Assembly: GCF_009914755.1 (NCBI RefSeq) | Contig: NC_060931.1 | Strand: one strand, 5' to 3' | Source of the DNA: the human T2T-CHM13v2.0 reference genome, Homo sapiens | DNA length: 64,000 nt | In this document: positions 53,421 through 54,564 of the stretch, piece by piece | How the letters are laid out: every line of letters begins with the position of its first letter | Numbering within the stretch: position 1 is the first letter of the stretch | Notes under the pieces: generated by a model | Database searches by the model: none | Told to the model about the DNA's origin: nothing | What the model saw: only the letters and a program-made list of their open reading frames with translations | Program-made: the position numbers and the translations under genes

Positions 53421-54564
53421 AAATCATAGGCTCTGGAGACCCATCCCTAACTGGAGAAATTACATAAAATTTTAAAGCCACAATTTTTCATCTATAAAAC
53501 GAAACAGTAGATCAAGGTCTCTGAGCACTGAGGTGAGGCCAAAATGAGATAATATAAGGCTGGGCAGGGTGGCTCATGCCTGTAATCCGAGCACTTTGGG
53601 AGGCCAGGGCAGGCAGATCACCCGAGGTCAGGAGTTCAAGATCAGCCTGGCCAACATGGTGAAACCCTGTCTCTACTAAAAATACAAAAATTAGCCAGGC
53701 ATAGTAGTGCATGCCTGTAATCCCAGCTACTCGGGAGGCTGAAGCAGGAGAATCGCTTGAACCTGGGAGCCGGAGGTTGTGGTGAGCCAGGATCGTGCCA
53801 TTGCACTCCAGCCTGGGCAGCAAGAGTGAAATTCGGTCAAAAAAAAAAAAAAAATTCCCTAGCTCAAAATGTAGCTCAGAACAAACAACAAATAATACTG
53901 TGATTAACATCTATGCCCAGTCCTCATCTACCCACCAGCTCAACTGATTATCTAATCCTTCCAAAAGGAAATGGAACTTATTCAAAGAATACTTGACAGA
54001 ATGCTGTGTTGTCTCAACTCTGCCACCCTGAGGCAAAGGAGTATCAATGACCACAGAACCATATTTTGCTCTTAGAGCAATACCCTCAACTATGCTGCCA
54101 CAAAACCCCAGTTCCTGCGTGATCTGTGTCTAAAATGAAATGAAAGATGACATTCTTCTCCCAATTAGTTTTTTTTAAACCAAGTTGGTAGAAAAAAGTT
54201 TTCAATTAAAAGTTTTTCTTTTGTCAAGTCTTCTCAGTCCTGCTGCTTCTTGTTTGGTAAAAGTACCAACAGATCACAAAATAAACAAATCCCTTGGAAA
54301 ACGACTATTAAAGGAACATCTGAAAAGGCTATCATGTTTAAGTTCAACAGACTATTTTTCTGTCAGGAAAAGCTGTGCCTGCTGTGAATTTATAATGCAT
54401 ACCTATCATTGAATGAGCTTTTTGCTAACAAAATTAGTTTTAAATTAAATATGTCATTATTGCACTGTGATCAGACAAGGGTATATAGTGCCCTTATAAA
54501 ATTGAGGCTTTAAAATTTTCTGTAATTTCTCCAGTTAAGGATGGGTCTCCAGAGCCTATGATTT
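53421..54564. repeat. 67-bp inverted repeat (arms 53421-53487 and 54498-54564, 64/67 identical)
   Basis: Direct base-by-base comparison of arm 1 reverse complement with arm 2. Confidence 0.95.
53557..53853 (+). mobile_element. Alu (AluS-like)
   Basis: Dimeric Alu inside the inverted-repeat loop. Confidence 0.9.

What the first reader, a model, noticed from the sequence alone, without database searches (positions are those of the whole stretch)
53421..54564. 67-bp near-perfect inverted repeat in RBM28 intron 13: a long-range pre-mRNA stem
Seen: 53421-53487 and 54498-54564 are reverse complements at 64/67 positions, separated by 1010 nt, and neither is Alu or L1. One of the three differences becomes a G:U wobble only on the RBM28 (minus) strand, giving 65/67 pairs in the pre-mRNA. 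Arm 1 resembles a decayed MIR, so ~95% identity cannot come from two independent old insertions; it implies a local inverted copy or ongoing homogenisation/selection. The lower arm lies ~205 nt from the exon 14 acceptor. Inference: a duplex that loops out 1 kb of intron, including the cryptic exon below, and is a likely ADAR substrate.
Basis: partly seen in the sequence, partly recalled or inferred. Interest (0 to 1): 0.8.

Follow-up and report, generated by a model that had tools for sequence, protein, structure and literature searches.

The report
Inverted 67-base copy in RBM28 intron
A 67-base piece of an ancient repeat in an RBM28 intron was copied backwards about 1 kb away, so the intron RNA should fold into a long double-stranded stem, but nothing yet shows that the stem does anything.

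Summary
Window 53421-53487 and 54498-54564 are reverse complements at 64 of 67 positions with 1010 nt between them. Homology stops abruptly at both ends. The pair is unique in the human assembly.

Arm 1 lies inside a decayed MIR SINE whose alignment runs across both arm edges. The flanks of arm 2 show no MIR similarity. Arm 2 is therefore an inverted, templated copy of an internal MIR piece. It is not a second MIR, a transposon end, or an inversion scar. Three differences imply an age of about 20 My (95% CI about 4-69 My), which neutral decay explains without selection or homogenisation.

On the RBM28 (minus) strand one difference is a G:U pair, giving 65 of 67 pairs. The computed duplex energy is -104 kcal/mol. 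The stem appears in the minimum-energy fold of the whole 2103-nt intron 13, with mean pair probability 0.945. It touches no splice signal.

The RNA stem and ADAR editing are physically plausible but untested here. No primate genomes, editing tables or duplex maps were available. No paper found mentions the repeat.

Verdict: a real, ordinary-in-kind, probably neutral template-switch product, and a good candidate ADAR substrate.

The parts
53421..53487 (-). Arm 1 of the inverted repeat. It is the source copy and forms the 3' arm of the stem in the RBM28 pre-mRNA (intron positions 1833-1899).
   Evidence: It lies inside the MIR-like alignment 53409-53548, which crosses both arm edges.
54498..54564 (-). 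Arm 2. It is the derived inverted copy and forms the 5' arm of the stem in the pre-mRNA (intron positions 756-822).
   Evidence: Its flanks resemble neither MIR nor the flanks of arm 1.
53488..54497 (-). The 1010-nt spacer looped out by the stem. It contains the rest of the MIR, an Alu and unique sequence.
53409..53548 (+). Decayed MIR SINE, sense on the plus strand and antisense to RBM28. It contains arm 1 and is cut by the Alu insertion at its right end.
   Evidence: Local alignment to a consensus built from 30 genomic MIR copies scores 20 (0/300 shuffles). With only the arm part shuffled, 1/1000 reach that score. The region is in the top 31 of 1597 real windows, and most of the others coincide with the nhmmer MIR matches. 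Against: nhmmer gave only E=0.2 for a 38-nt piece of the flank.
53558..53855 (+). Alu element with a 17-A tail, inside the loop. It is antisense in the RBM28 pre-mRNA, where it gives a 17-U tract.
   Evidence: Sequence. Rfam Metazoa_SRP-like matches at 53559-53675 and 53694-53840 on the plus strand.
53217..55319 (-). RBM28 intron 13 (2103 nt, GUGAGU...UUUCAG), which holds the whole structure.
   Evidence: Hub annotation.
53058..53216 (-). RBM28 exon 14. Its acceptor lies 204 nt downstream of the stem in the RNA.
   Evidence: Hub annotation.
55320..55384 (-). RBM28 exon 13. Its donor lies 755 nt upstream of the stem in the RNA.
   Evidence: Hub annotation.

Best explanation
The feature is a lineage-specific inverted micro-duplication. 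A 67-nt internal piece of an old, decayed MIR SINE in RBM28 intron 13 (arm 1) was copied once, in reverse complement, into unrelated sequence about 1 kb away (arm 2); the distance was about 0.7 kb if the Alu in between arrived later. The most likely cause is a polymerase template switch during replication or break repair, that is, a templated insertion. Since then the two copies have drifted apart by three substitutions. As a by-product, every RBM28 pre-mRNA carries two perfectly placed complementary segments. Both are transcribed before the intron's acceptor, so a 67-bp, 65/67-paired duplex should form and loop out 1010 nt of the intron. Such a duplex is the kind of RNA that ADAR enzymes edit promiscuously. 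Shown here: the repeat, its uniqueness, the direction of copying, and the thermodynamic preference. Inferred: the mutational mechanism, the age, duplex formation in cells, and editing. I judge it most likely selectively neutral, with at most a small effect on splicing.
For: The repeat is real and has sharp ends. A gapped local alignment with 250-nt flanks returns exactly the 67 nt. The inner and outer flanks are no more alike than shuffles (213/500 and 342/500 shuffles reach the observed score). It is unique in the genome, with two places only. The direction of copying follows from context. The region 53409-53548 aligns collinearly with a MIR consensus across both arm edges: 0/300 shuffles reach the score, and 1/1000 do when only the arm part is shuffled. 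It ranks among the top 31/1597 real windows. The same 67 nt in the arm 2 context scores at background: 440/1000 shuffles reach it, and 76% of real windows score at least as high. At 53480 arm 2 keeps the T seen in the MIR consensus while arm 1 has A, as expected if arm 1 mutated after being copied. Age: 3/67 differences give a JC distance of 0.046, or about 19-23 My (95% CI about 4-69 My) at 1.0-1.2e-9 per site per year. RNA: the duplex energy is -104.4 kcal/mol on the sense strand, against -10.4 and -11.1 for self-folds of the arms. 65/67 pairs are in the MFE of the full intron, with mean pair probability 0.945. The best alternative partners score only -39.3 and -35.9 kcal/mol. Literature read: template switching creates inverted copies and RNA hairpins in human and ape genomes (PMC5453318 passages; PMC7954356 passages). 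In the human dsRNA survey, edited dsRNAs have longer uninterrupted runs (median 31 vs 17 bp) (PMC11838218, Results part 1). This stem has a 44-bp run.
Against: No outgroup genome could be consulted, so the ancestral state (arm 2 absent) is inferred, not seen. The MIR assignment rests on consensus alignment statistics. The profile search did not reach significance: there was no hit at E<=1 in the window, and in a 1.2-kb search the only hit was E=0.2 and -1.3 bits for a 38-nt flank piece. Arm 1 alone is not significantly MIR-like (90/300 shuffles). Neither junction shows microhomology at the exact switch point. Published ape scans found 2->3 fragments with median 12 nt and maximum 128 nt, searched only within +/-100 nt, and excluded RepeatMasker-masked templates. 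A 67-nt copy from about 1 kb away is therefore outside the documented short-range class. The wide confidence interval on age does not exclude an old copy held together by selection. No editing, duplex-mapping or splicing data were available.
Confidence: 0.7

Rival explanations
1. The stem is a selected cis-regulatory RNA structure. It is kept near-perfect because it shortens the effective intron, or because it hides the antisense Alu or a cryptic exon in its loop from the spliceosome.
For: The duplex is very stable, dominates the computed intron ensemble, and encloses an antisense Alu with a 17-U tract. One of the three differences is a G:U on the sense strand. Intronic complementary pairs are statistically linked to splicing (PMC8052449 passages).
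Against: The level of divergence is what neutral decay of a roughly 20-My-old copy predicts. A transition has an even chance of being a wobble on either strand. The other two differences are true mismatches on both strands. The stem is 204 and 755 nt from the splice sites and overlaps no splice signal. No data were available on conservation, editing or splicing.
Confidence: 0.1
2. Two independent MIR insertions in opposite orientation had a 67-nt tract homogenised by gene conversion.
For: Arm 1 is MIR-like. Gene conversion tracts can be this short (recalled, not checked here).
Against: The flanks of arm 2 show no MIR similarity in the required orientation: left flank 252/300, whole region 267/300, and arm with its own flanks 440/1000 shuffles reach the observed score. 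The flanks of the two arms are unrelated. Conversion between about 70%-identical old SINEs lacks the long perfect homology normally required (recalled).
Confidence: 0.04
3. The arms are the terminal inverted repeats of a non-autonomous DNA transposon of about 1.1 kb.
For: The architecture fits: inverted ends with about 1 kb between them.
Against: Only these two arms exist in the genome. There is no target-site duplication next to the arms (junction view). Arm 1 is internal to a MIR that continues on both sides. Human DNA transposons are old, so their ends would not be 96% alike (recalled).
Confidence: 0.02
4. The repeat is a small inversion of the spacer, with duplication of one breakpoint caused by staggered breaks.
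For: Inverted duplications flanking an inverted segment are a known scar of staggered-break inversions (recalled).
Against: That model places the original continuation of the MIR next to arm 2. Instead the MIR runs uninterrupted through arm 1 into the spacer (53488-53548; 5/300 shuffles for the flank alone, 0/300 combined). The inner flank of arm 2 is not MIR-like (252/300 shuffles).
Confidence: 0.03
5. The repeat is an assembly artefact or a private variant of this one assembly.
For: Only one assembly was examined.
Against: The three substitutions between the arms indicate age, not a recent artefact. The surrounding sequence is unique and ordinary.
Confidence: 0.01

Closest known systems
Template-switch ('four-point model') mutations that create inverted repeats and RNA hairpins in human and great-ape genomes (PMC5453318; PMC7954356; PMC8794818, abstract only)
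   Same: A fragment of nearby sequence is copied in reverse complement and inserted. This creates a new inverted repeat that can fold as RNA, with no selection needed to explain the perfect pairing.
   Different: Documented events are short-range. The search space was +/-100 nt, the median copied fragment was 12 nt and the maximum 128 nt, and masked templates were excluded. Here the fragment is 67 nt, the template is a MIR, and the distance is about 1 kb. This resembles the templated insertions of FoSTeS/MMBIR-type or polymerase-theta repair (recalled). The ancestral state was not seen.
Inverted Alu pairs in introns, the main ADAR substrates
   Same: They are intramolecular intronic dsRNA formed by two inverted copies of a SINE-derived sequence within a few kb.
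   Different: The Alu pairs in this window have arms of about 100-260 nt and are 75-90% complementary. They arise from independent insertions and can pair promiscuously with other Alus. This stem is shorter (67 bp), 97% paired, arose from one copying event, and has a single possible partner in the genome.
Predicted 'highly paired' dsRNAs of the dsRNAscan catalogue (Andrews and Bass, PMC11838218)
   Same: It meets their stated criteria when recomputed here: score 187 against a threshold of 75, 97% paired against a 70% floor, and a loop under 10 kb. It falls in their >96%-paired class.
   Different: That class has 31,017 members out of 5,134,754 predictions, so membership is not exceptional. Their full table is not held here, so I could not see whether this locus is listed or marked as edited.
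[quoted passage not shown]
   Same: They are long-range complementary segments within one intron. Such pairs are enriched inside introns and for A-to-I sites.
   Different: PCCRs are defined by evolutionary conservation and exclude RepeatMasker intervals. This pair is probably young and one arm is MIR-derived. RBM28 is not mentioned in the main text (0 occurrences).
Intron-internal pairing that brings splice sites closer, as in yeast RP51B-type introns (recalled, not checked)
   Same: Pairing inside an intron shortens the effective distance between the donor and the branch or acceptor region.
   Different: In the yeast cases pairing was shown by mutation to aid splicing. Here nothing has been tested, and the intron is only 2.1 kb long.

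Membership tests
MIR SINE (for the arm 1 region) | Collinear similarity to the MIR consensus or core | tested here: met
   The consensus was built from 30 genomic copies anchored on a 26-nt core motif (302 exact genome matches, 0 control). The region 53409-53548 scores 20, reached by 0/300 shuffles and by 1/1000 when only the arm part is shuffled. It is in the top 31/1597 real windows.
MIR SINE (for the arm 1 region) | Significant match to a profile HMM of the family | tested here: inconclusive
   nhmmer gave no hit at E<=1 in the whole window. With filters off on 1.2 kb it gave only a 38-nt flank match at E=0.2 and -1.3 bits. My HMM came from unusually well-kept copies, and Dfam models were not available.
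MIR SINE (for the arm 2 context) | MIR similarity continuing into the flanks of arm 2 | tested here: not met
   252/300, 267/300 and 440/1000 shuffles reach the observed scores. 76-88% of real windows score at least as high.
DNA transposon with terminal inverted repeats | Multiple genomic copies | tested here: not met
   There are two places only, the arms themselves.
DNA transposon with terminal inverted repeats | Target-site duplication flanking the ends | tested here: not met
   The junction view shows no direct repeat next to the arms.
Template-switch / templated inverted insertion | Block copied in reverse complement from nearby sequence, with sharp ends and unrelated flanks | tested here: met
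Template-switch / templated inverted insertion | Ancestral sequence lacking the copy (outgroup comparison) | not testable with these tools
   No primate or other mammalian genome is held. Only the direction of copying could be inferred, from the MIR context.
Template-switch / templated inverted insertion | Short range, with template within about 100 nt as in published ape scans | tested here: not met
   The template is 1010 nt away, whereas published scans searched +/-100 nt. It works like these events but lies outside the catalogued short-range class.
ADAR substrate dsRNA | Long, nearly uninterrupted intramolecular duplex in a transcribed region | tested here: met
   65/67 positions pair, the longest run is 44 bp, the energy is -104.4 kcal/mol, and the stem lies inside an annotated intron.
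ADAR substrate dsRNA | A-to-I sites observed on both arms | not testable with these tools
   No editing database is held. Papers with RBM28 and A-to-I (8 found, 7 listed, 2 opened) concern the protein or an exonic variant.
Conserved long-range pre-mRNA structure (PCCR-type) | Conservation and compensatory substitutions across species | not testable with these tools
   No multi-species alignment was available. The estimated age of about 20 My argues against deep conservation.

The most novel reading that the evidence does not exclude
A template-switch accident in a catarrhine ancestor created, in one step, a near-perfect 67-bp intronic duplex. On this reading it has since been retained because it does work. 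One possibility is that it cages the antisense Alu or a cryptic exon in its 1-kb loop away from the spliceosome. Another is that it serves as a built-in dsRNA/ADAR-sensitive checkpoint on RBM28 itself, a splicing factor recently reported to limit cellular dsRNA (PMC13601520, abstract and passages). That would be a dated, single-event birth of a functional long-range pre-mRNA structure.
Probability: 0.07. Interest if true: 0.6.

Novelty: new member of a known kind. Interest (0 to 1): 0.3.

Why it matters
The locus is a clean natural example of how one mutational event can create a long, almost perfect RNA duplex. It has a single partner, sharp edges, an identifiable source and copy, and sits in a constitutive intron of a broadly expressed gene (expression recalled, not checked). 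It also lies outside what published template-switch scans could detect, because the template is a masked repeat 1 kb away. That makes it a convenient test case for three questions. Do unique, non-Alu intronic duplexes form and get edited in cells? Do they affect splicing of their host intron or of Alu exons in the loop? How fast do such duplexes decay? If, as I expect, it is neutral, its main value is as a calibration point and as a caution against reading selection into young inverted copies.

Tried and rejected
1. I looked for other copies or a repeat family. Three whole-assembly DNA searches and one 35-nt pattern scan with up to 3 mismatches found only the two arms. Single-sequence nhmmer of either arm region against the window found only the partner arm.

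2. I tested the transposon-end, gene-conversion and inversion-scar origins. All were rejected on flank evidence.

3. The MIR profile search did not reach significance for the arm 1 region. I fell back on consensus alignment with three kinds of null.

4. The Rfam scan of 53000-55500 at E<=1 gave 4 matches. Two are Alu/SRP-like, one is a sub-threshold mir-1268-like match inside the Alu, and one is a chance bacterial sRNA match. None falls in the arms.

5. I tried to estimate the background frequency of such repeats. As a small substitute, the 30 unrelated 3-kb loci already held (90,780 bases) gave 26 inverted HSPs. Only one had >=90% identity and >=40 nt, a 550-nt pair at 90% in L016, and none resembled this repeat. 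The published count of >96%-paired predictions, 31,017 genome-wide, was used instead.

6. Literature searches found nothing on this structure. 'RBM28' with 'inverted repeat' gave 6 papers (5 listed, 3 opened), all about the protein. 'RBM28' with 'A-to-I' and 'intron' gave 8 papers (7 listed, 2 opened), none relevant. 'RBM28' with 'intron 13' gave 0 papers. RBM28 is absent from the main texts of PMC8052449, PMC10573301 and PMC11838218, and from the one held supplement of the last. The full catalogues behind those papers (PCCR track hub, dsRNAscan Table S1) are not held and could list this locus.

Full report
**Observation.** The sequence, the repeat finder and my own alignment agree. Window 53421-53487 and 54498-54564 are reverse complements at 64 of 67 positions, without gaps, and 1010 nt lie between them.

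The three differences pair 53447(C) with 54538(A), 53465(T) with 54520(C), and 53480(A) with 54505(A). Read on the minus strand, which is the RBM28 sense strand, the first becomes G:U. So 65 of 67 positions pair in the pre-mRNA, against 64 of 67 on the plus strand.

The interval 53217-55319 reads GUGAGU...UUUCAG on the minus strand and is 2103 nt long. It lies between the annotated exons 13 and 14. The stem sits 755 nt after the donor and 204 nt before the acceptor.

Chance cannot produce this: the expectation is about 2e-26 for the window. Among 391 unique inverted BLAST HSPs in the window, it is the only one with >=93% identity over >=40 nt, and it has no Alu content.

**What the arms are.** The homology has sharp edges.
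- A gapped local alignment of the arms with 250-nt flanks returns exactly the 67 nt.
- The inner and outer flanks of the two arms are no more alike than shuffled sequence (213/500 and 342/500 shuffles reach the observed score).
- In the whole assembly the arm has two places only, itself and its partner. This holds in BLAST-type searches with 67-, 168- and 241-nt queries. It also holds in a pattern scan of the 35-nt core with up to three mismatches, which gave 1 forward, 1 reverse and 0 control matches.

The arms are therefore not ends or members of a recognisable multi-copy family at this similarity. No target-site duplication flanks them.

**Which arm is the original.** No repeat library was available, so I made a MIR reference from the genome itself. 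A 26-nt MIR core motif (recalled) has 302 exact matches in the assembly and none for the reversed control. I aligned 30 of these copies into a profile and a consensus.

The profile finds clear MIRs elsewhere in the window, for example 48830-49051 at E=2.7e-16. It does not report the arm 1 region at E<=1. With all filters off on 1.2 kb it gives only a 38-nt match in the flank, at E=0.2. That is evidence against a confident MIR call.

A more permissive local alignment to the consensus gives a different picture.
- It yields a collinear match for 53409-53548 that runs through both edges of arm 1, with a score of 20 that 0/300 shuffles reach.
- Keeping the right flank and shuffling only the arm part reaches that score in 1/1000 trials.
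- Against real sequence, 31 of 1597 windows score as high. Most of them lie at or near the nhmmer MIR matches, and three are the arm 1 region itself.
- Arm 1 on its own is not significant (90/300 shuffles).

The same 67 nt in the context of arm 2 score at background: 440/1000 shuffles reach the score, and 76% of real windows score at least as high. The left and right flanks of arm 2 are not MIR-like in the inverted orientation (252/300 shuffles for the left flank and 267/300 for the whole region).

At 53480 the copy keeps the T found in the MIR consensus while arm 1 has A. I conclude, with moderate confidence, that arm 1 is an internal part of an old MIR and arm 2 is a later inverted copy of just that part.

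**Rejected origins.**
- Conversion between two inverted MIRs is excluded because there is no MIR around arm 2.
- A transposon with inverted ends is excluded by uniqueness, by the lack of a target duplication, and by the MIR continuing on both sides of arm 1.
- An inversion with a duplicated breakpoint predicts that the MIR continuation sits next to arm 2. Instead it sits next to arm 1.

What remains is a templated inverted insertion: a polymerase copied 67 nt from the opposite strand about 1 kb away and returned. This is the logic of the four-point template-switch model (PMC5453318, passages read). The published great-ape scans, however, searched only +/-100 nt. They found copied fragments with a median of 12 nt and a maximum of 128 nt, and they excluded templates masked as repeats (PMC7954356, passages read). 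This event would therefore have escaped them, and it belongs to a longer-range version of the process. I see no microhomology exactly at either junction. After millions of years that is weak evidence either way.

**Age and selection.** Three differences in 67 nt give a Jukes-Cantor distance of 0.046. At 1.0-1.2e-9 substitutions per site per year (rate recalled) this is about 19-23 My, with an exact-binomial 95% interval of roughly 4-69 My.

Neutral decay of a copy made in an ape or catarrhine ancestor therefore explains the identity. Neither homogenisation nor selection is required. The single G:U on the sense strand carries no weight, because any transition in one arm yields a wobble on one strand or the other with equal probability. 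The other two differences are mismatches on both strands.

**What it does as RNA.** Thermodynamically the stem is overwhelming.
- The duplex energy is -104.4 kcal/mol for the sense-strand arms, against about -10 to -11 for each arm folding alone.
- 65 of 67 pairs are present in the minimum-energy fold of the complete intron.
- The mean pair probability in the ensemble is 0.945.
- The best alternative partners elsewhere in the intron reach only -39 and -36 kcal/mol.

Both arms are transcribed before the acceptor, so the duplex can form on every transcript before the intron can be removed (inference).

The stem has uninterrupted runs of 44, 14 and 7 pairs, with 25 and 18 adenosines in the two arms. 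In the genome-wide survey by Andrews and Bass, edited dsRNAs have longer uninterrupted runs than unedited ones (median 31 vs 17 bp; PMC11838218, Results part 1). By their stated scoring this stem scores 187 against a threshold of 75 and is 97% paired. ADAR editing is thus a reasonable prediction, but I could not check any editing table.

The same survey counts 31,017 predicted dsRNAs with >96% pairing among 5.13 million (section 10), so the class is not rare. RBM28 introns in this window also contain many longer inverted Alu pairs of 100-260 nt at 75-90% complementarity.

The stem overlaps no splice signal. The loop holds an Alu (53558-53855, plus strand; Rfam SRP-like matches) that is antisense in the pre-mRNA, where it gives a 17-U tract. 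That is the usual raw material for Alu exons (recalled). Whether the stem shields it is speculation.

**Comparison, novelty and verdict.** It works like a template-switch-born hairpin and like an inverted-SINE ADAR substrate. It is not a PCCR in the published sense, because those require conservation and exclude repeats.

No paper in the searched library mentions this structure. 'RBM28' with 'inverted repeat', with 'A-to-I' and 'intron', or with 'intron 13' returned only papers about the protein, or nothing. The large catalogues behind PMC8052449 and PMC11838218 are not held and may list the locus.

I rate it as a new member of a known kind. It is a real and tidy structure, most likely a neutral mutational by-product. 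Its origin is well supported and its function is untested.

**What could not be done.** No other mammalian genome was available, so conservation is a prediction only. 

Noticed in passing
window 9890-10033 and 11019-11161: A second non-Alu inverted pair: 146 nt, 85.6% identity, 985 nt spacer. It lies in the intergenic stretch before RBM28. It could be a pair of old repeats or the ends of a DNA transposon.
   Followed up: no
window 56521-56656 / 59462-59597, 57936-58079 / 60929-61072, 60929-61073 / 61521-61665 and others: Many inverted Alu pairs of 100-260 nt at 75-90% complementarity lie within 5 kb of each other, several of them across RBM28 introns and exons 10-12. These are potential dsRNA and back-splicing substrates that are longer than the 67-bp stem.
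   Followed up: no
window 53558-53855 (plus strand): The Alu in the loop is antisense to RBM28 and gives a 17-U tract followed by AG and GU dinucleotides in the pre-mRNA. Splice-site strength was not scored.
   Followed up: partly
window 48830-49051 (-), 60615-60718 (-), 4725-4807 (+), 57406-57481 (+), 32982-33112 (-), 2756-2815 (+): The home-made MIR profile found other MIR copies in the window, with E-values from 2.7e-16 to 0.02. They served as positive controls for the MIR reference.
   Followed up: partly
window 54645-54677 (plus strand): A weak MIR-core-like stretch, including an exact 11-nt core match, lies just outside arm 2 in the plus orientation (11/300 shuffles reach its score). It is not in the orientation needed to explain arm 2.
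   Followed up: partly
L016 212-748 and 2159-2700 (G000:C1:20345508-20348533): One of the 30 unrelated loci holds a 550-nt inverted pair at 90.4% identity about 1.4 kb apart. It is probably two inverted copies of a young repeat.
   Followed up: no
window 22219-22262: A short self-complementary (palindromic) stretch: 45 nt at 84% identity to its own reverse complement.
   Followed up: no
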